From Nannocystis pusilla (lineage in GTDB: Bacteria; Myxococcota_A; Polyangia; Nannocystales; Nannocystaceae): a stretch of DNA of 64,000 nt. Under the pieces are notes generated by a model. The model did no database searches. It saw only the letters and a program-made list of their open reading frames with translations, and was not told the origin of the DNA. A program made the position numbers and the translations under genes. Shown one piece after another: positions 12,458 through 59,320 of this stretch (the first letter of the stretch is position 1; the number at the start of each line of letters is the position of its first letter). Location of the stretch: NCBI RefSeq assembly GCF_051105105.1, contig NZ_CP185339.1. One strand, given 5' to 3'.

Positions 12458-12850
12458 GTGGGCGAAAGATCGCGGGTGGCTTTGGTCCCCGAGACTCACC
12501 TGTTGTCCTGCGGCGGATGCGACGAGTTGGTTCGCGCCGCCGATCCGATCTGTCCCTACTGCGGAGCGTCGCGGGCCCGCGCGGAGCGCACGGGCTCGTT
12601 GGCCGCGCTGGCCGCCGCGCTCGTGGTCGCCGCCTGCACCACCGGCCAGCCCGCATACGGCGGGCCCGACACCGATTCGGAGGGCACGGAGGTGACCCCG
12701 ACGGACGCGACGACGACGGACGCGACGACGACGACGGACGCGACGACGACGACGACGACGACGGACGCGACGACGACGGACGCGACGGGTACGACGGCAC
12801 CGACGACGGGCACGGGCTCGGAGTCGACCACCGACGACACGACCGGGTAG
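12458..12850 (+). CDS. small Zn-ribbon / membrane-anchored protein with Thr/Asp/Ala-rich repeat tail
   Basis: CGGC...CPYC, then hydrophobic AALVVAAC, then TDATTT repeats encoded by DNA tandem repeats. Confidence 0.4.
   Translation: MGERSRVALVPETHLLSCGGCDELVRAADPICPYCGASRARAERTGSLAALAAALVVAACTTGQPAYGGPDTDSEGTEVTPTDATTTDATTTTDATTTTTTTDATTTDATGTTAPTTGTGSESTTDDTTG
12700..12800 (+). repeat. coding tandem repeat (acggacgcgacgacgacg units) encoding Thr/Asp/Ala-rich linker
   Basis: Repeated GACGCGACGACGACG units visible in the sequence. Confidence 0.6.
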
Positions 12851-45285: not shown

Positions 45286-45470
45286 ATTGTGAGGACATGT
45301 CCGATTGGACACGTCATCCCATCTCGCCCTGTTCATGGTGGCCGGCTGACCCTCGGGACATGCCGGAATGGCCATGTATCGCAGCGTCGCACGCCGTTGC
45401 CGCGGCGACCATGCTGCTCTTTCAGTCATGCCCGGAGGGGCATGCCTCAAAGGTCATCCAGCCGAAGCCT
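45286..45470. repeat. cluster of GGACATGTCC-type palindromic repeats (low-GC island) between convergent genes
   Basis: gaGGACATGTCCgattGGACACGTCA...cGGGACATGCCggaaTGGCCATGTA...aGTCATGCCCggagGGGCATGCCtc. Confidence 0.6.
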
Positions 45471-50396: not shown

Positions 50397-51712
50397 TTGA
50401 CAGGCGGTCGCCGTAGATCTTTACGTGAGGCGATGCTCGCCGCTCCCCGGGTCTCGCTGGCCGTCCTCCTCGTGCTCGTCGCCTGCGGCGGCGGAGAGGG
50501 CGAGAGCAGCGCCACGGAGACGGGGACCGCCGCGACTTCGACGGAGCCGTCGACCTCGACCACCACCGGCACCGGGACCACGACCACCACGGAGGCCGCG
50601 CCGACGACCACGAGCTCGAGCGGCGACCCGAGCACCACCGGCGCGCCGCTCGAGGGCTACGCCAATCCGGCGCTGTGGCTGTGTCACCCGGACAAGCCGG
50701 CAGGCCCGACGCCTGCCTCTCGGCCGACCTGACCGCGACCGAGCTGCTGCCCGACGGCGGGACCGCGATCGTCGAGCACACGATCGCCGCCGCCCCGGCG
50801 TTCGACTGCTTCTACGTCTACCCGACCGTCGACATCCGCCTGCAGCCGGGTCAGACCGAGAGCTTCGACGACCTCGATCAGGAGCTCGACCCGCTGCTCA
50901 ACCAGGCGGCCCGCTTCACCTCGATGTGCCGGATGTTCGCGCCGCTGTACCACCAGGTGACGATCGGCACCTACGGCAGCGACCAGGCCGAGGCGCTGCT
51001 GACCGCGGCGTACCAGGACGTGCTCGCCGCGTTCGAGAGCTACCTCGAGCGCCACGCCGACGGCCGGCCGCTCTTGATCCTCGGCCACTCGCAGGGCACG
51101 TACATGACGACGCGGCTGATCCAGGAGGTCGTCGAGCCCGACCCGGCCCTGCGCGAGCGGCTGCTGGCGGCGTTCCTGCTCGGCGGCTCGTTCAGCGTGC
51201 CGTTCGGCGCGGCGATCGGCGGCACGCTCTCGACCATCCCGCTGTGCGACAGCGCCGAGCAGCTCGGCTGCGTCGTCGCCTACCGCACCTACGCGGCCGA
51301 GCTGCCGCCGGAGGGCGGCTCGAACGCGCCCGACCTCCCCGGCAACAACGTCGCCTGCACCAACCCGGCCGCGCCCGGCGGCGGCTCGGGGCGCGCCCGC
51401 GGGGCGTTCTTCCCCAACTTCACCCACCAGGAGGCGGTGTTCCCGAAGATCGACTTCGGCGCGGCGATCGATACGCCCTTCGTGGTGATGCGCGACTTCT
51501 ACGGGCTGTCGTGCCAGACCGACGGCGAGGGTCAGCATTTCCTCGCGGTCGCGCCCGCGCCCGACGCCGGCGACGTGCGCACCGACCCTGTCGACATCAC
51601 CGCGCCGCTGTTCGCCCCGGGCTTCCTCGGCCTGCACGTGCTCGACTACAACTACGCGCTGCAGGACCTGCTCGACGCGGCCGCGGCCAAGGCGGCCGCC
51701 GCGGGGCTATGA
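50397..51712 (+). CDS. lipoprotein with Thr-rich linker plus DUF3089-like alpha/beta hydrolase domain; frameshift ~50700
   Basis: LVLVACGGG lipobox, Thr-rich linker, GHSQGT, second frame. Confidence 0.6.
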
Positions 51713-51714
51713 AC

Positions 51715-51800
51715 CGGAGGACATGTCCCGAGGAGAATGTCCGAAGGAGCATGTCCTGTGCGGCATGTCGAAATGAACATGGCCTGAAGGCCACATCAAA
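51715..51800. repeat. array of ATGTCC repeats at 14-15 bp spacing in a convergent intergenic region
   Basis: acATGTCCcgaggagaATGTCCgaaggagcATGTCCtgtgcggcATGTCGaaatgaACATGG. Confidence 0.6.
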
Positions 51801-51803
51801 AGT

Positions 51804-52247
51804 TCAATCGAGCGGCCGCGTCATGAGCACCCGCGGCGGGGCGGTGAAGCCGGAGCGGCGGTAGAGCTCGATGGCGGGCGTGTTGTCGGTGCGGACCATC
51901 AGGTGGACCGCGCGGGCCCCGTGGGCGCGGGCGGAGGCGAGGGCGGCGTCGAGGAACAGGCGGCCGCGACCGGCGCCGCGGACCTCGGCCCGCAGATACA
52001 GCTCGGTGAGGAAAGCGTCGCGTCCGCCCCACTCGAGGTCGAAGCCCCAGGTGAGCACGAAGTAGCCGAGCGGCGCGTCGCCGTCGAGGCCGAGGACCAC
52101 CGTGCCGAGCCCGGGCGAGCCGATCAGGGTCCGCAGCGGCGCCTCGCCGGGCCCGCGGCGCCACGGGATGTGCTCCAGGCGGTTGAAGTCCTCCATCATG
52201 TCGAGGATCGCGGGGACATCGGAGCTGGTGGCCGGGCGAAAGTGCAT
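51804..52247 (-). CDS. GNAT family N-acetyltransferase
   Basis: AEVRGAGRGRLFLDAALASARAHGARAVHLMVRTDNTPAIELYRRSGF. Confidence 0.8.
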   Translation of the reverse strand: MHFRPATSSDVPAILDMMEDFNRLEHIPWRRGPGEAPLRTLIGSPGLGTVVLGLDGDAPLGYFVLTWGFDLEWGGRDAFLTELYLRAEVRGAGRGRLFLDAALASARAHGARAVHLMVRTDNTPAIELYRRSGFTAPPRVLMTRPLD

Positions 52248-52338
52248 CGTGCCGGCACTATAGGCCCACCGCGGAGCTTGCGCGCCGGCGGCCGGTTTCA
52301 CGCGTCCGGGGGCCCCCAGGGCCAGCGGGCGCCGATCC

Positions 52339-54205
<1,867 letters not shown>

Positions 54206-54219
<14 letters not shown>

Positions 54220-56599
54220 GCGCCGGGCCGCGCTGACGCTGCTGCCGGTCTTGCTGCAGGTCTTGCTGTCGGTCTTGGCCTGCGCCCCGCGCGGGCCGGC
54301 GACCGCGGAGCCAGGTGCGCCGAAGGACATGTCCAAAGAGACATCCGGTGCGGCCGCGGTGGCGGCCTGTGACAAGCAGGCGAGCGCGGTCCAGGACGGG
54401 CTGGTGCGCCTGGCCGATCGCTACCTGTGGGAGGAGATCGAGCTGCTCGTGCAGGCCCACGCGGCGACCCGCGGCCGGCCCGACGCGACCCGCTGCGCCG
54501 AGGCGACCCGCGCGGCGCTGACGACCGTGACGCTGCGCTGGGCCGAGCAGGGGGCCGAGTCGGGCGGGTCGCAGAGCCACGCGCTGGCCCGCCAGGCCTA
54601 CGCGGCGCTGCGCAAGCACTTCCCCGCCGAGGCCGAGGCGCCGCTGCTGCACCACGCGATGGGCAAGCTCGAGTGGGCCCGCGCCGAGCGCCTGACGCTC
54701 GAGATCGGCGAGCGCACCCTGACCGACGACGCGCTGCGCGAGGCCCACGCCCACCACCGCGCCGCCCTGGCCGGCGGGCTGCCGACCGAGCAGGCCGCCC
54801 GCTCGGCCCGGGCCCAGCTCGACGCGGTCCGCCGCGTGCGCGAGGGGGAGCCTGCTCCATGGGTCATGTCTGAACAGACATGCCTGCCGGACCCGCGCGG
54901 CCGCTGCACCGACCCGGTCCCGCGCGTCGCTCCCGGCGAGATGACGGCCGGCGACCGCGAGTGGCTGGCCGCCTACGACGCCTTCCTCGCCGAGCCCGGG
55001 CTGCAGGGCACGCCCGAGGCCGGGCAGGTCGCGGTCGAGCGGGCCGAGCTGCTGATGCGATACCGCCGCTGGGACGAGGCCGAGACCAGCCTGCGCGCCG
55101 TCAGCGGGCCGGCGCGCGAGCAGGCGCGGGTGCTGCTGGTCGGCCTGCTGCTGGCGCGCTGGATGGAGGCCGCCAGCGCCGGCGAGCGCTCGGCCGCCCG
55201 CGTCGCGCTCGTCACCACGGCGGTCGAGGTCGAGGCCGCTGGCGGGCCGCAGGTGGCCCAGGTGGCGGCGCTGCGGCGCGCGGCACTGTGGGCCCAGGCC
55301 GAGGAGTCGGAGGCGGTCGGGGACGACGCCCGCTGCGGCGCGGCCTTCGAGGCGCTCTACGCCGACCTCGGCGCCGACCTCGACGCCGCGGCCGAGGCGG
55401 CCGACGGCGCCGGTCGCTGCTACGAGCGCGCCGGCCTGACGCAGAAGGCGATCGACTGGCTCGAGCGCATGGCCGACGTCCACCGCGAGGACCCGCGGGC
55501 CCCCGACGCGGTGCTGCGGCTGGCCCGCTTGCACGAGCGGATCTTGAACGACGAGCAGGCCCGCGACCGCTACCTCGATCTGGTGGCCCGCGCCCCGCGG
55601 CACCGCGCCGCCGCGACCGCCCGCCGCCGCTCGCTGATCCTGAGCCTGCGCGCCGGGACATTGCCCGAAGGACAGCTCGACGCGCTGATCCGCGGCCGCC
55701 CGGAGGAGCGCACGCTGGCGGCGGCGATCCAGTTCCGCGCGGTGTTCCGCCCCGGCGTCACGCCCGAAGCGGCCGAGAAGTACATCGAGCGGTTCGGCAA
55801 GGAGGGCGGGCCGCGGCGGCTGGCGATCGCCCACGCGCGCGCGGCCGAGGCGTGGCTGCGGGTGTCCTGCCCGGTCCCCGGGGCCGAGGGCCTGTGCGTC
55901 GAGTTCGGCCGCGACCGCACGCCGGCGCGGGTGGTGGCCCGCCTGCCCAAGCCGCACGCCAAGGGCCGCGAGCACCTCGACCGCGCGCAGAAGCTGCTGC
56001 CCGAGGTCAGCGGCGGCGAGGTCGACAAGCTCGAGGCGCCGATCGCCGTCGACGCCGAGGAGGCGCGGGCCGCCAGCCGCCAGGTCGCGCTGCTGCAGGG
56101 CGACCTCGACGCCGAGTCGGCGCTCACCAGCCAGCCGCCGAAGAGCCTCGACCCGGCCCGCTCGCGCGCGTGGCTCGAGGTCCGCAAGGCCGAGGTCGAG
56201 CGCATGAGCGCGGTCTACGAGACCGCGACCGCGGGCGGGGCGGGCGGCCGCGATCAGTCGGCGGCGCTGGTCGAGACCCGCAAGGCGCAGGTGTACGAGT
56301 CCGACCTGGCGCTGCTCGACGAGGTGGCCGCCGCCGTCGAGGCCGCCGGCGACGCCGGCCTGGCCCAGCAGATGCGCGAGCTGGCGGCCCAGCGCCGCGA
56401 GGCGGTGTTCACGGCCTACGCCCGCTGCCTCGACCACGTGGCCGCGTGGGGCCACGACGCCGGAGGCCAGAGCGCCCTGTGCCGCGCCGGCCTCGGCCGC
56501 CTGGTCGGTCGCTACGAGGAGCCGCTGGAGTACGCGCCCGACCACGATGGGCGGGTGATCGTCGGCGCGGCGGCCAGAGCCTCGGGCCCGCCGCGGTGA
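54206..56599 (+). CDS. TPR-like helical-repeat lipoprotein, overlaps kinase gene end
   Basis: LLQVLLSVLAC lipobox. Confidence 0.55.
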
Positions 56600-56699: not shown

Positions 56700-56812
56700 A
56701 GCAGAGCGCGAGATCGATGAGACATGCTCGAAGTACCATGTTTCATCGAGCATGTCGCATTGTACATGCCGATGAAGACATGTCCATCAGGGCATGTCCG
56801 AACAGGCAGCCT
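56700..56812. repeat. array of ~6 (A/C)CATGTCC-like repeats at ~14-bp spacing in a convergent intergenic region
   Basis: gagACATGCTCG..taCCATGTTTC..gaGCATGTCGC..gtACATGCCg..agACATGTCCa..gGCATGTCCg. Confidence 0.6.
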
Positions 56813-57926
56813 CAGTCGCCGAGCTCGCGCAGCAGGATCCGCGCGCGCAGGCGGCGGCGCTCGTCGGCGCCGAGCCCGTCGACGTAGGCCCGCAGGAGCG
56901 CGCGGGCCTCGGCGCGGGCGGCCGGGTCGGCGGCGTCGGCCAGCAGGATGCCGAGGTTGAAGGTCAGCTCGGGCGGCAGCTTGGCGGGCGCCGTAGTGTC
57001 GAGCCCGAGGCTCGGAGAGCGCGTTGCGGTAGGCGGCCTCGGCGGGCTCGCGCTCGCGGCGGCGGGCGTGGCTCACCCCGAGGCCGAGGAACGCCGCGTA
57101 GCGCAGGCGCGGCGAGGGCGCGGCGGAGGCCTGCTGGTACAGCCGCACCGCCTCGTCGAGGTTGCCGGCCGCGAGCTCGGCGGCGGCCCAGGCGAGCGCC
57201 GCGGCGTGGTCGTCGGGCGCCAGCTCGAGCGCGCGGGCGAAGCGGCGCCGACCGTCCACCGGATCGGCCGAGCGGAAGGCGATCCGCCCGCACGCGGCCG
57301 CCAGCACCGCCGCGCCCTCGCGGTCGCGCAGGCGCGCGAGCAGCGGGTCGGCGCGGTCGCGGCAGATCGGCGCGGCCCGCTCGCGCGGGTCGGCGTCGTG
57401 CAGCGCGGTGAAGCGCAGCGCCAGGCTCAGGGCGTAGGGGTCGTCGGCGGTGACCGCCAGGGCGGCCGCAACGTCGCGCGCCAGGGCGGCCGCGTCGATC
57501 GGCCCGTCGCGCTTGCCCGGGTCCTCGGGCCGCCGCGCCCTGAAGTCGAGGTACGCCGAGAACGTCGCGGGTCAGGCGGTAGACCGCGCGCGCGCCGGCC
57601 GTCAGCGGCAGCTCGCCGACGGCCGCGTCGATGTCGCCGACCCGCCCCGACTCGTGGGCCAGCACCGCCAGCGCGTAGGCCCGCGCGGTCGAGCCCGGCT
57701 CGCGGCGCAGCAGGGCGAACCGGATCGCCAGCGCGCCCGCGTCGTCGCCGCAGCGGAGCAGCACGTCGGCCCGGGTGAGCGCGCGGGAGCTGTCCCCGGG
57801 GACAGGCGCCGGGGCGCACGGATCGATCTCGGGCACGGCCGGGGGCGGGGCCGGCGGCGCCTTGTCCGGCGCCGTCTGACGCGCGCAGGCGAGCAGGAGC
57901 GCGCAGAGGAGCAGGGCGCGGGGCAC
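56810..57926 (-). CDS. TPR-repeat lipoprotein, two frameshifts
   Basis: MPRALLLCALLLAC lipobox. Three collinear frames are joined at 57558-57567 (GAACGTC) and ~56980 (C-run). Confidence 0.5.
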
Positions 57927-58350: not shown

Positions 58351-58671
58351 TGCGCAGGCGCCGAGCGTGCCGCTCTGGCCCGTGCCGCTCGCAACGAATC
58401 GAGCCCATGGCCGCGATCTTGCCCGTCGAGCTCGCCCGGTCCGGCCCCTCGTGGCGCGAGTGGGAGCCGCAGGACGACCGCGCCCGCGGCGCGAGTCTTC
58501 GCCACGTCTGCCGGAAGTAACATGTCCTTGGGGACATGTCATGACATTGTCATCGATTCGCCGCCTCCCGCGCCGGCGGCTTCCCCGCCGTGAGCAGAGG
58601 CCGATCTGCGGCGAATGTCGATACCCTGAATAGGCAGAGTCGACGCGCGTCCGTGCGCACCGAGGTTTTAA

Positions 58672-59175
58672 ATGAAAATGCACAAGCTCTTCCTGACCCT
58701 GTTGGCGCTCCTCTTCAGCGTGACCGGTTGCAGCTTCACGCTCTCGTCGCACGGCGGTTGGGGGTCGGAGGGGCCCGCGCCGCGGATGGCCAGCCGCGGT
58801 TACGGCTGGGCCTCCGCGGGCGACCCGGGCCTGCACGGCCGCGGCAAGCCGGCCCGCCGCGTCGACGCCGGCGAGCGCCCCGCGACGAAGCCGGCCGGCG
58901 CGGCGCCCACCAAGGCGAAGCAGCCGGGGATCACGTGGGCGGGCGAGGTGCCGCAGAAGGCGAAGAAGCCAGGGATCACGTGGGCGGGCGAGGTGCCGCA
59001 GAAGGCGAAGAAGCCGGGGATCACGTGGGCGGGCGAGGTGCCGCAGAAGGCGAAGAAGCCGGGGATCACGTGGGCCGGGAAGGTGCCGCCGAAGCGGGCG
59101 AAGCAGCCGAGCAAGCCCGCCGGCAAGCGGCCGGCGATCACGTGGGCCGGCACGGTCCCGCCGCGCCCGCAATGA
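58672..59175 (+). CDS. lipoprotein with ~4.5 tandem 15-aa repeats (PGITWAGEVPQKAKK)
   Basis: MKMHKLFLTLLALLFSVTGC lipobox; 45-bp DNA tandem repeats 58921-59130. Confidence 0.65.
   Translation: MKMHKLFLTLLALLFSVTGCSFTLSSHGGWGSEGPAPRMASRGYGWASAGDPGLHGRGKPARRVDAGERPATKPAGAAPTKAKQPGITWAGEVPQKAKKPGITWAGEVPQKAKKPGITWAGEVPQKAKKPGITWAGKVPPKRAKQPSKPAGKRPAITWAGTVPPRPQ
58921..59130 (+). repeat. 45-bp coding tandem repeat x ~4.5
   Basis: ccggggatcacgtgggcgggcgaggtgccgcagaaggcgaagaag repeated. Confidence 0.8.
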
Positions 59176-59224
59176 GGTCGAGCAGGCGCGGCGCGCGAGG
59201 CGCTCGCTGAACCTGCTCACACGG

Positions 59225-59320
59225 CCATGTCCATGAGGACATGGCCGTTTTTGTTGCGCCGGTGCTGGCGCGTCGCGTTCTTCTCATGACTAATCGGACA
59301 TGTCCTCTCAGACCGGCGCG
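59225..59320. repeat. inverted repeat CCATGTCC-atga-GGACATGG plus GGACATGTCC palindrome
   Basis: ggCCATGTCCatgaGGACATGGcc ... aatcGGACATGTCCtc. Confidence 0.6.

What the first reader, a model, noticed from the sequence alone, without database searches (positions are those of the whole stretch)
56700..56812. Phased array: six (A/C)CATGTCC-like units at 14-bp periodicity between two convergent gene ends; a second array at 51715-51800
The units are gagACATGCTCG, taCCATGTTTC, gaGCATGTCGC, gtACATGCCG, agACATGTCC and gGCATGTCC, each about 14 bp after the previous. They lie in the 210-bp gap between the 3' ends of the 54206 (+) and 56810 (-) genes. At 51715-51800 there are ATGTCC x3 plus ATGTCG and ACATGG at 14-15 bp spacing, between the 3' ends of the hydrolase (+) and GNAT (-) genes. 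Phased direct repeats in terminator-side intergenic regions fit a small RNA/structured element, a nucleoid- or partition-type protein binding array, or remnants of a repeat-mediated insertion better than a promoter.
Basis: seen in the sequence. Interest (0 to 1): 0.6.

Follow-up and report, generated by a model that had tools for sequence, protein, structure and literature searches.

The report
Phased CATG palindrome arrays, Nannocystis
The two arrays are real members of an apparently undescribed repeat family confined to the myxobacterial genus Nannocystis: strings of 14-bp CATG-centred palindromes that sit just after stop codons, mostly between convergent genes, much as REP elements do in E. 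coli but on a far stricter lattice.

Summary
CATG cores lie at exactly 14-bp steps: six at 56723-56793, and five to six at 51708/51722-51778. No shuffle of the window gives even three in register. The window is from a Nannocystis (Myxococcota).

- **Unit:** a 14-bp near-palindrome, aaGGrCATGyCCtt.
- **Arrays:** 3-9 units, found in at least seven Nannocystis genomes and many metagenome contigs, and absent from more distant relatives.
- **Position:** about 70% lie between convergent genes, about 25-30% after the upstream gene of a co-directional pair and about 1% in divergent gaps, with a median of 9 nt from a stop codon. This matches E. coli REPs.
- **Evolution:** between orthologous arrays the cores are 72/72 conserved against 69% for other positions. 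The register is rigid (14 bp: 390 pairs; 13 bp: 7; 15 bp: 17). Unit number changes in whole 14-bp steps.
- **Folding:** both strands fold strongly, but this follows mostly from the palindromic motif. Covariation specific to pairing is weak, and an apparent sense-strand bias failed replication.

My best reading is a REP/BIME-like 3'-end element that works in both directions and is read by a sequence-specific factor. Whether it acts as RNA hairpins or as a protein lattice on DNA is unresolved. It is a new variant of a known kind, of moderate to high interest.

The parts
56718..56801 (.). Array 1: six 14-bp units with CATG cores at 56723, 56737, 56751, 56765, 56779 and 56793. It lies 15 nt from the stop of the - gene and about 120 nt from the stop of the + gene.
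   Evidence: exact register. (RNA fold -43.6/-38.8 kcal/mol, z -5.9/-4.6 on the + and - strands). (6/6 cores conserved in ILAH1, no indels).
51703..51786 (.). Array 2: five units with cores at 51722, 51736 (AATG), 51750, 51764 and 51778, plus a degenerate first unit (CTATGA) that overlaps the DUF3089 stop codon. It fills the gap up to the GNAT stop, which is 23 nt beyond the last core.
   Evidence: (z -2.9/-4.2). (alignment with ILAH1, N. punicea and L124).
45291..45449 (.). Degenerate member in the convergent gap between the S1/P1 nuclease (+) and the MOSC protein (-). It contains GGACATGTCC-gatt-GGACACGTC (45293-45315) and phased pairs at 45359/45373 and 45427/45441. The orthologous gap in N. 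punicea holds a full six-unit array.
59221..59248 (+). Two-unit hairpin ACGGCCATGTCC-atga-GGACATGGCCGT followed by TTTTGTTG. This is a textbook intrinsic terminator 46 nt after the stop of the lipoprotein gene 58672-59175, and it is conserved in ILAH1.
   Evidence: 12-bp stem, 8 G-C pairs, T-tail. (-25.8 kcal/mol, z -3.9). (same hairpin at L001 18805).
59280..59307 (.). Phased pair CATGACTAATCGGACATGTCC in the same convergent gap. It includes a perfect GGACATGTCC at 59296.
58516..58543 (.). Two-unit palindrome ACATGTCC-ttgg-GGACATGT with cores at 58521 and 58535. By the ILAH1 gene map it lies in a divergent (promoter-side) gap upstream of 58672, so it is an atypical member or an unrelated operator.
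   Evidence: (weak fold, z -0.7).
54206..56599 (+). Flanking gene: a 797-aa TPR-like lipoprotein whose 3' gap holds array 1. Its orthologues in six genomes all have an array downstream.
56812..57926 (-). Flanking convergent gene (370 aa in ILAH1). In the window it carries two 1-nt insertions. Its stop lies 15 nt from the last unit of array 1.
50675..51712 (+). Flanking gene: DUF3089 hydrolase. The first, degenerate unit of array 2 overlaps its stop codon.
51804..52301 (-). Flanking convergent gene: GNAT acetyltransferase. Its 3' end keeps an array in every genome examined, even where the convergent neighbour is a different gene.

Best explanation
The arrays belong to a repeat family specific to the genus Nannocystis and built like REP/BIME elements. 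Each unit is a 14-bp near-palindrome, aaGGrCATGyCCtt. Units stand head to tail with no slack, in arrays of 3-9 that occupy the promoter-free DNA just after stop codons, mostly between convergent genes.

Shown: arrays grow and shrink by whole 14-bp units. The non-core bases drift at about the rate of unconstrained DNA. The CATG cores, the purine/pyrimidine flanks and the register are held by selection. The presence of an array at a given gene's 3' end is kept across species even when its content or its neighbouring gene changes.

Inferred mechanism: the array is a 3'-end element that works in both directions. Because every unit is self-complementary, a transcript entering from either side folds into stacked hairpins with 10-bp stems and 4-nt loops. 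These would limit read-through into the opposing gene and/or protect the mRNA 3' end from exonucleases, as shown for E. coli REPs. Because hairpins alone need neither a fixed CATG nor a fixed spacer, a sequence-specific factor must additionally read the units. This could be a host protein on DNA or RNA, or a REP-transposase-like enzyme. That factor is inferred and has not been identified.
For: - **Register and cores:**. CATG-CATG distances are 282 (14 bp) vs 2 (13) and 6 (15) in the genome loci, 40/0/1 in loci retrieved by protein and so not selected for the pattern, and 390/7/17 in the metagenome loci.
- **Genus restriction:** a scan of 185,579 species genomes for five phased cores returned 38 Nannocystis loci from six named species. 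All 82 other loci were plain 7/14-bp tandem repeats (successive-unit non-core identity, median 0.92 vs 0.41). There is no array in relatives with 73% or lower identity of the flanking protein, and only two units at 83%.
- **Context:** 38 convergent, 17 co-directional (the clear cases next to the upstream gene's stop) and 0 divergent. This was replicated as 51/17/1, with a median of 9 nt from stop codon to first core. E. coli REPs are about 60/40/1% (doi 10.64898/2026.03.23.713779).
- **Selection:** cores are 40/40 conserved between window and ILAH1 vs 94/126 for non-core positions, with no indels inside arrays although the flank has several. In four orthologous pairs the figures are 72/72 vs 124/180.
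- **Persistence at 3' ends:** six genomes keep an array after the TPR gene and after the GNAT gene, although unit number (3-7), position in the gap and the neighbouring gene all differ.
- **Whole-unit change:** L233 and L254/L294 differ by exactly 14 bp, and L086 has six near-identical units.
- **Folding:** mean z is -4.7 on both strands. Real arrays are more stable than pseudo-arrays assembled from units of other arrays (-38.3 vs -35.1 +/- 1.1 kcal/mol). Real substitutions preserve folding better than random ones (z -7.3), and still slightly better than motif-respecting ones (z -2.4).
- **A working terminator:** a two-unit member followed by a U-tract is a canonical intrinsic terminator and is conserved in ILAH1.
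Against: - Most of the folding energy and most of the 'fold preservation' follow from the palindromic motif itself. Pairing-specific covariation is weak (z about -2.4 to -3.5) and rests largely on one orthologous pair.
- The sense-strand bias expected for RNA-level selection appeared in the genome sample (G.U tolerated; p about 0.04). It was not reproduced in the independent metagenome sample (12/30 arrays; GT 33 vs AC 35).
- The arrays themselves lack U-tracts. Only 2-3 of 22 good two-unit hairpins have one, and hairpins without U-tracts are poor intrinsic terminators in at least some GC-rich bacteria (title and abstract of PMC3993855).
- A hairpin model does not explain the invariant CATG or the fixed 4-nt spacers.
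- No transcript data were available.
- No RAYT-type transposase was found in 1.5 Mb of held Nannocystis-like DNA. This is a weak negative.
Confidence: 0.45

Rival explanations
1. A protein lattice on double-stranded DNA. A sequence-specific, probably dimeric, DNA-binding protein recognises each RRRCATGYYY palindrome. At a 14-bp step successive dimers are rotated by about 120 degrees, so they would coat 40-120 bp as a helical filament. Placed at gene 3' ends, this would act as a transcriptional roadblock or insulator, or recruit a topoisomerase or nucleoid protein where convergent transcription piles up supercoils. E. coli REP/BIME elements are reported to bind several proteins.
For: - The 4-bp core is invariant and the flanks are symmetric R/Y.
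- The register is rigid even in the 4-nt spacers, and 1-nt indels are absent from arrays although present in the flanking intergenic DNA.
- There is no reproducible strand asymmetry.
- Fold preservation is largely explained by a per-position motif model.
Against: - Arrays are tightly coupled to stop codons (median 9 nt) and almost absent from promoter gaps. That is typical of transcript-end elements and not of known bacterial DNA-binding arrays.
- Units within an array are somewhat more complementary to each other than to units of other arrays, and their order matters.
- The commonest unit is asymmetric (GGGCATGTCC/GGACATGCCC, 38/297) and tends to alternate in orientation. This makes perfect inverted repeats and is not expected for independent dimer sites.
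- Unit number is variable (3-9), so no complex of fixed size is implied.
- No candidate protein has been identified.
Confidence: 0.3
2. A mostly selfish or neutral repeat. A minisatellite-like palindromic unit expands by replication slippage, or is spread by a dedicated enzyme, and persists only where it does no harm, that is in promoter-free gaps. It would have no host function.
For: - Whole-unit gain and loss occurs between close relatives, and L086 looks like a recent expansion with near-identical units.
- Unit number, position in the gap and sequence turn over between species.
- Not every convergent gap has an array: in my rough gene map of the window the three very short convergent gaps (overlapping to about 56 bp) lack one (coordinates; inference).
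- The same 3'-gap distribution is seen for E. coli REPs, which are thought to descend from mobile elements.
Against: - Cores are 72/72 conserved vs 69% for neighbouring positions in orthologous arrays.
- There are no 1-nt indels inside arrays.
- Arrays are present at the same gene ends in six genomes, and both gene ends keep an array after a rearrangement separated them.
- Arrays at different loci are not copies of each other (successive-unit non-core identity, median 0.41), so there has been no recent burst from a master copy.
- No transposase was found (weak).
Confidence: 0.17
3. An RNA lattice for a ring-shaped or multimeric RNA-binding factor. Examples would be a Rho-type hexamer, whose subunits each cover roughly 13-14 nt (recalled from memory), or a protein-sponge small RNA with repeated CAUG or GGA motifs.
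For: The period is 14 nt with a pyrimidine-C motif (YCC) after each core on both strands. Arrays of 5-6 units (70-84 nt) are common. The position is at the 3' end.
Against: - Unit number ranges from 3 to 9 with no cap at six.
- G equals C in the arrays and they are strongly self-paired, the opposite of known Rho-loading sites.
- There is no room for a promoter of an independent small RNA and no Rfam match.
- GGA is present in only about half of the units.
Confidence: 0.05

Closest known systems
REP elements and their clusters (BIMEs) of Enterobacteria, Pseudomonas, Xanthomonas and Stenotrophomonas
   Same: Both are extragenic, specific to a genus or species, and palindromic. Both occur singly, as doublets and in regularly spaced clusters (PMC2817692). 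The placement is nearly identical: E. coli REPs are about 60% convergent, 40% tandem and 1% divergent, against 69-74%, 25-31% and 0-1% here. REPs act as 3'UTR terminators and stabilisers, and in both directions between convergent genes (doi 10.64898/2026.03.23.713779).
   Different: The unit is 14 bp, not about 35-40 bp. Each unit is itself a palindrome centred on an invariant CATG, whereas REPs, as I recall, carry their conserved tetranucleotide (GTAG) at the 5' end of the palindrome. Units abut on an exact lattice with no variable linkers. Alternating orientation is only a weak tendency. Non-core positions are highly diverged (about 40% identity between neighbouring units). [quoted passage not shown] No RAYT transposase has been found so far.
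Intrinsic (Rho-independent) and bidirectional terminators, including the repeated mycobacterial terminator motif TRIT
   Same: Both are GC-containing hairpins directly after stop codons and are symmetric, so usable from both sides. One two-unit member with a U-tract (59221-59248) meets the consensus. TRIT is a precedent for a repeated, conserved terminator sequence in a GC-rich genome (PMC3384566).
   Different: The arrays carry no U-tract. They have several hairpin-forming units where a terminator has one, and an invariant core sequence with a fixed period, none of which a terminator needs.
Tandem protein-binding arrays: plasmid iterons, ParR/parC-type centromeres, omega-repressor heptads and MetJ metboxes (all recalled from memory)
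   Same: Both are short sites repeated head to tail at a fixed step, with a conserved core and variable spacers, and read cooperatively by small dimeric proteins.
   Different: Those arrays lie at origins, partition loci or promoters next to their cognate gene, with one or a few per replicon. These appear to number in the hundreds per genome, lie in 3' gaps and avoid promoters.
Minisatellites/VNTRs, such as the 7- and 14-bp tandem repeats found in all other genomes by the same scan
   Same: Both have head-to-tail units and gain or lose whole units.
   Different: Ordinary tandem repeats have near-identical units (median non-core identity 0.92). Here only the core and the R/Y pattern are kept (0.41), and TRF barely detects the arrays (scores 40-47).

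Membership tests
REP/BIME (repetitive extragenic palindromes) | Extragenic, placed at gene 3' ends (between convergent or co-directional genes, almost never divergent) | tested here: met
   compared with the E. coli figures.
REP/BIME (repetitive extragenic palindromes) | High copy number (more than 100 per genome) | tested here: inconclusive
Density is about one array of five or more units per 30 kb in the window, and about one secondary array per 15 kb in the held loci. That implies hundreds per 12-13 Mb genome, but no whole genome was counted.
REP/BIME (repetitive extragenic palindromes) | Imperfect palindrome able to form a stable stem-loop | tested here: met
   Two adjacent units give a 10-bp stem with a 4-nt loop. 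Fold z is about -4.7 on both strands.
REP/BIME (repetitive extragenic palindromes) | Clusters of regularly spaced units in alternating orientation (BIME) | tested here: inconclusive
   Regular spacing is met to an extreme degree. Alternation is only a weak tendency: GT->AC 24 and AC->GT 16 vs GT->GT 12 and AC->AC 8, and reverse-complement similarity at odd lags is 3.05 vs 2.82.
REP/BIME (repetitive extragenic palindromes) | Associated RAYT (IS200/IS605-like Y1 transposase) gene flanked by the repeats | tested here: inconclusive
   tblastn of E. coli RayT against 1.5 Mb of held Nannocystis-like DNA gave only chance hits. This covers only a fraction of one genome equivalent, and complete genomes could not be searched with these tools.
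Intrinsic terminator | GC-rich hairpin followed directly by a U-tract | tested here: not met
   The arrays themselves have no T-run. Only the two-unit hairpin at 59221-59248 qualifies, and 2-3 of 22 good two-unit hairpins have a T-rich tail.
Simple tandem repeat (micro/minisatellite) | Near-identical head-to-tail units | tested here: not met
   Median non-core identity between successive units is 0.41, against 0.92 in the non-Nannocystis hits. TRF scores are 40-47.
Transcription-factor operator, iteron or centromere array | Located in promoter, origin or partition regions, few per replicon, next to a cognate gene | tested here: not met
   0/55 and 1/69 classifiable arrays lie in divergent gaps. 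The neighbouring genes are dispersed and unrelated.
MITE or other small mobile element | Defined length, terminal inverted repeats and many near-identical copies at non-orthologous sites | tested here: not met
   Arrays differ in length (3-9 units) and in sequence at every locus, and they are held at orthologous sites across species. Target-site duplications were not searched for systematically.
Known RNA families (Rfam 15) | Match to a curated covariance model | tested here: not met
   There are no matches at gathering score in the window. With the E-value threshold, only two chance-level matches appear elsewhere in 51.5-59.5 kb.

The most novel reading that the evidence does not exclude
The arrays are the DNA (or RNA) half of a dedicated system that marks gene ends. 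A Nannocystis-specific factor would read CATG-centred palindromes on a strict 14-bp lattice and insulate convergent transcription units. This would be a sequence-programmed, protein-dependent bidirectional terminator or roadblock of a kind not described in bacteria, with the number of units tuning its strength.
Probability: 0.2. Interest if true: 0.85.

Novelty: new variant of a known kind. Interest (0 to 1): 0.6.

Why it matters
REP-type repeats are abundant in some bacteria, yet what they do is still debated 40 years on. This family offers an unusually clean version of the problem: a 4-bp invariant core, an exact lattice, a countable number of units, clear purifying selection and stable orthologous sites across a genus. 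That makes two questions directly testable, by moving the spacing by one base, by swapping CATG while keeping the pairing, or by changing the unit number. The first is whether the element acts as RNA hairpins or as a DNA-bound protein array. The second is how convergent genes are insulated in GC-rich genomes that have few canonical terminators. Nannocystis species are also producers of natural products with 12-13 Mb genomes, so compact bidirectional 3'-end parts would be useful for engineering them. If a dedicated reader protein exists, it would be a new class of factor that marks gene ends.

Tried and rejected
1. **Rfam.** Nothing matched at gathering score or by E-value.
2. **Promoter.** One sigma-70-like match lies inside array 1 on the minus strand. 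Its -10 hexamer is not conserved in ILAH1, so I treated it as chance.
3. **Strand-specific RNA selection.** In the genome sample the sense strand folded better (p = 0.037), and G..T units (49) outnumbered A..C units (29). The independent metagenome sample showed no such bias, so I dropped this as evidence.
4. **Compensatory evolution.** The signal is strong against a random-substitution null (z -7.3), but it shrinks to z -2.4 once the per-position purine/pyrimidine motif is respected.
5. **Fixed size of six units** (a hexamer-type reader). The metagenome sample has 3-9 units with no cap.
6. **Multi-species covariation alignment.** This was not feasible, because orthologous gaps hold arrays that are not alignable unit by unit beyond close relatives.
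7. **PadR-type operator ATGT-N8-ACAT** (recalled from memory). It would need +1 = T followed by -1 = A, which is seen in only about 29% of unit junctions. The likeness of RRRCATGYYY to the p53 half-site is a coincidence.
8. **Mobile element between two arrays in L005.** The interval holds ordinary ORFs that my strict gene filter had missed.
9. **RAYT transposase.** No hit in the held DNA. This is inconclusive.
10. **Viral contigs with phased CATG.** These are mostly microsatellites. The few degenerate ones are directional direct repeats next to terminase genes, and the shared CATG and 14-bp step were imposed by my search pattern.
11. **Analogous arrays with another core or period in more distant Nannocystaceae.** None found.
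12. **Literature.** Searches found no description of these repeats.

Full report
**Observation.** In 56700-56812, CATG starts at 56723, 56737, 56751, 56765, 56779 and 56793, every step being exactly 14 bp. In 51700-51800, ATG starts at 51709, 51723, 51737, 51751, 51765 and 51779, with the full CATG at 51722, 51750, 51764 and 51778. No other place in the 64-kb window has three or more CATG at any fixed period of 6-39 bp apart from the 28-bp harmonic. Three phased CATG occur 5 times, against none in 100 dinucleotide-preserving shuffles. Both arrays are local GC troughs, at 51-57% against a window average of 71%. Each lies between the stop codons of convergent genes. Array 2 is between a DUF3089 hydrolase and a GNAT acetyltransferase. 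Array 1 is between a 797-aa TPR-like lipoprotein and a gene on the minus strand whose stop is at 56812-56814.

**Anatomy.** The units are not simple direct repeats. Each is a near-palindrome centred on CATG with purines before it, pyrimidines after it and an A/T-enriched 4-nt spacer, giving the consensus aaGGrCATGyCCtt. The perfect 10-mer GGACATGTCC occurs four times in the window, where base composition predicts about 0.06. Two-unit versions with the same 14-bp step occur at 45.3, 58.5 and 59.2 kb. One of them, ACGGCCATGTCC-atga-GGACATGGCCGT followed by TTTTGTTG at 59221-59248, is a textbook intrinsic terminator behind the gene 58672-59175. The commonest 10-mer across the family is the asymmetric GGGCATGTCC/GGACATGCCC (38 of 297 units). 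Neighbouring units tend weakly to alternate in orientation.

**Source and distribution.** The flanking DUF3089 protein is 96% identical to that of Nannocystis sp. ILAH1 and 87% identical to that of N. punicea. The syntenic loci of both carry arrays at the same gaps. Of these, 38 came from six named Nannocystis species. The other 82 were all ordinary 7- or 14-bp tandem repeats. Median identity of non-core positions between successive units is 0.92 in those, against 0.41 in Nannocystis. Relatives whose DUF3089 protein is 73% identical or less have no phased array of any tetranucleotide. One at 83% has just two units behind the same stop codon. A second, differently designed scan of metagenome contigs (GGACATGCCC plus two further phased cores) again hit its limit. 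It yielded 97 arrays on 91 high-GC contigs. Sampling density suggests hundreds of arrays per 12-13 Mb genome, but this is an inference and no whole genome was counted. I found no description of these repeats in the literature library.

**Context.** With a GC3-based gene call, 67 arrays from the genome loci fall 38 in convergent gaps, 17 in co-directional gaps and 0 in divergent gaps. The clear co-directional cases lie next to the stop of the upstream gene. The metagenome set gives 51, 17 and 1, with a median of 9 nt between a stop codon and the first core. Many arrays fill the whole space between two stop codons. By my rough gene map of the window, all four convergent gaps of 90 bp or more hold a member, and the three very short ones do not (inference). 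This distribution is almost the same as that of E. coli REP elements, at about 60% convergent, 40% tandem and 1% divergent (doi 10.64898/2026.03.23.713779).

**Evolution.**
- *Window versus ILAH1.* Coding DNA is about 97% identical. In the two arrays all 40 core bases are conserved, but only 94 of 126 non-core bases are. There is no indel inside the arrays, although the adjoining intergenic DNA has several.
- *Four orthologous pairs.* Cores are 72/72 conserved, against 124/180 for non-core positions.
- *Register.* CATG-CATG distances of 14, 13 and 15 bp number 282, 2 and 6 in the genome loci. They number 40, 0 and 1 in loci retrieved by protein, which were therefore not selected for the pattern, and 390, 7 and 17 in the metagenome loci.
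- *Length change.* Close relatives differ by exactly one 14-bp unit (L233 against L254/L294). One N. pusilla array has six almost identical units, which looks like a recent expansion (L086).
- *Longer distances.* Over these, the content turns over but the presence does not. The gap behind the TPR gene holds an array in all six genomes examined, with 3-7 units, sometimes at the other end of the gap. The GNAT 3' end keeps its array although its convergent neighbour differs. Where DUF3089 has been separated from GNAT, in N. punicea, it has an array of its own.

Together these results rule out a neutral repeat expansion. They show selection on the cores, on the register, and on having an array at these gene ends.

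**Hairpins or protein sites?** Single-stranded arrays fold strongly on both strands, with a mean z of -4.7 against dinucleotide shuffles. That is largely unavoidable for tandem palindromes, so I tested for complementarity beyond the motif.
- Real arrays are more stable than pseudo-arrays assembled from units of other arrays (-38.3 against -35.1 +/- 1.1 kcal/mol). They are also more stable than their own units in shuffled order (-37.0 +/- 0.4).
- Substitutions between orthologous arrays preserve folding far better than random substitutions (z -7.3). They do so only slightly better than substitutions drawn from the position-specific motif (z -2.4, carried mainly by one pair).
- A bias expected for RNA-level selection appeared in the genome sample: the sense strand folded better and G..U-compatible units were in excess (p about 0.04). 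It was absent in the independent metagenome sample, so I do not count it.
- Arrays lack U-tracts, which only 2-3 of 22 good two-unit hairpins carry.

The dominant constraint is therefore the motif on its lattice. Pairing-specific constraint is real at best at a low level.

**Interpretation.** The family behaves like REP/BIME elements in where it sits, in being palindromic, clustered and lineage-specific, and in having a member that is a bona fide terminator. By analogy with the experimentally supported role of REPs as 3'UTR terminators and stabilisers that can act in both directions between convergent genes, my best reading is a bidirectional 3'-end element. A hairpin element needs neither an invariant CATG nor an invariant 4-nt spacer, so something that reads sequence and distance must also be involved. 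That could be a host protein on DNA or RNA, or an enzyme that maintains the repeats. I put 0.45 on this composite. I put 0.30 on a purely DNA-level protein lattice (roadblock or topology), 0.17 on an essentially selfish or neutral repeat, and 0.05 on an RNA lattice for a ring-shaped factor or a sponge RNA. A fixed six-unit complex is not supported, since arrays run from 3 to 9 units.

**Comparison and novelty.** Against REP/BIME the differences are substantial: a 14-bp unit that is itself a palindrome, an invariant central tetranucleotide, an exact head-to-tail lattice, strongly diverged non-core positions, positional stability across species, and no RAYT transposase seen so far. The RAYT result is only a weak negative, from 1.5 Mb searched. 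The arrays fail the tests for intrinsic terminators (no U-tract), simple tandem repeats, operator, iteron or centromere arrays, MITEs, and any Rfam family. I therefore file them as a new variant of a known kind and not as a member of the REP family proper.

**Limits.**
- Gene calls were made with a simple GC3 rule, and a few contexts are misassigned. Array 1 itself was scored co-directional because its minus-strand neighbour is frameshifted in the window.
- Both collection scans were truncated.
- The orthologue-based tests rest on four pairs.
- No expression, binding or methylation data exist here.

Noticed in passing
window 56812-57926 (- strand): The gene convergent with array 1 changes reading frame twice. 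Against the intact 370-aa ILAH1 orthologue, the window has 1-nt insertions near 57009 and 57561. It is either a pseudogene or carries assembly indel errors.
   Followed up: partly
window 54325-54334 and 54865-54882: A perfect unit, GGACATGTCC, lies inside the coding region of the TPR lipoprotein gene. It is the top motif score in the window and reaches the maximum possible score in ILAH1 at L001 13868. A two-unit pair lies further in. Both are conserved in ILAH1. Whether these are chance or functional intragenic members is unknown.
   Followed up: partly
window 58516-58560: The two-unit palindrome ACATGTCC-ttgg-GGACATGT is followed by a second palindrome, ATGACATTGTCAT. By the ILAH1 gene map it sits in a divergent, promoter-side gap upstream of the lipoprotein gene 58672. 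It is the only promoter-side member seen here and could be an operator.
   Followed up: partly
window 58912-59094: A 45-bp tandem repeat of 4.1 copies with 94% matches (TRF score 324) lies inside the lipoprotein gene 58672-59175, so the protein has a 15-aa repeat.
   Followed up: no
window 56786-56759 (- strand): A sigma-70-like match (TGGACA-16-TACAAT, 10 of 12) is formed by units of array 1. The -10 hexamer is not conserved in ILAH1.
   Followed up: partly
L086 3549-3622; L233 989-1048 vs L254 7301-7346 and L294 9357-9402; L074 7720-7963: These show array dynamics. An N. pusilla array has six near-identical units. Close relatives differ by exactly one 14-bp unit. A 71-bp higher-order repeat carries three units in each copy.
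   Followed up: yes
L137 6665-6750 (also L166, L168, L157, L135, L159): Viral contigs carry degenerate, directional CATG repeats at a 14-bp step (taATaCATGCttac). In L137, the only one whose gene context I examined, they lie in the non-coding stretch upstream of the terminase and portal genes and may be packaging or regulatory sites. The likeness to the Nannocystis arrays was imposed by the search pattern.
   Followed up: partly
L002 4580-4760 (N. punicea): Three direct copies of a unit of about 50 bp (…gccctgaatcgcctggcggattgcatcggccgcgcggagag…) lie just upstream of the six-unit array in the S1/P1-nuclease/MOSC gap.
   Followed up: no
window 12699-12808: A compound CGACGA-type repeat with periods of 15, 18, 27 and 33 bp (TRF scores 111-137).
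   Followed up: no
window 51782-51793: A small separate hairpin, GGCC-tgaa-GGCC, lies directly after the last unit of array 2 and before the GNAT stop. It is mutated to GGAC in ILAH1.
   Followed up: no
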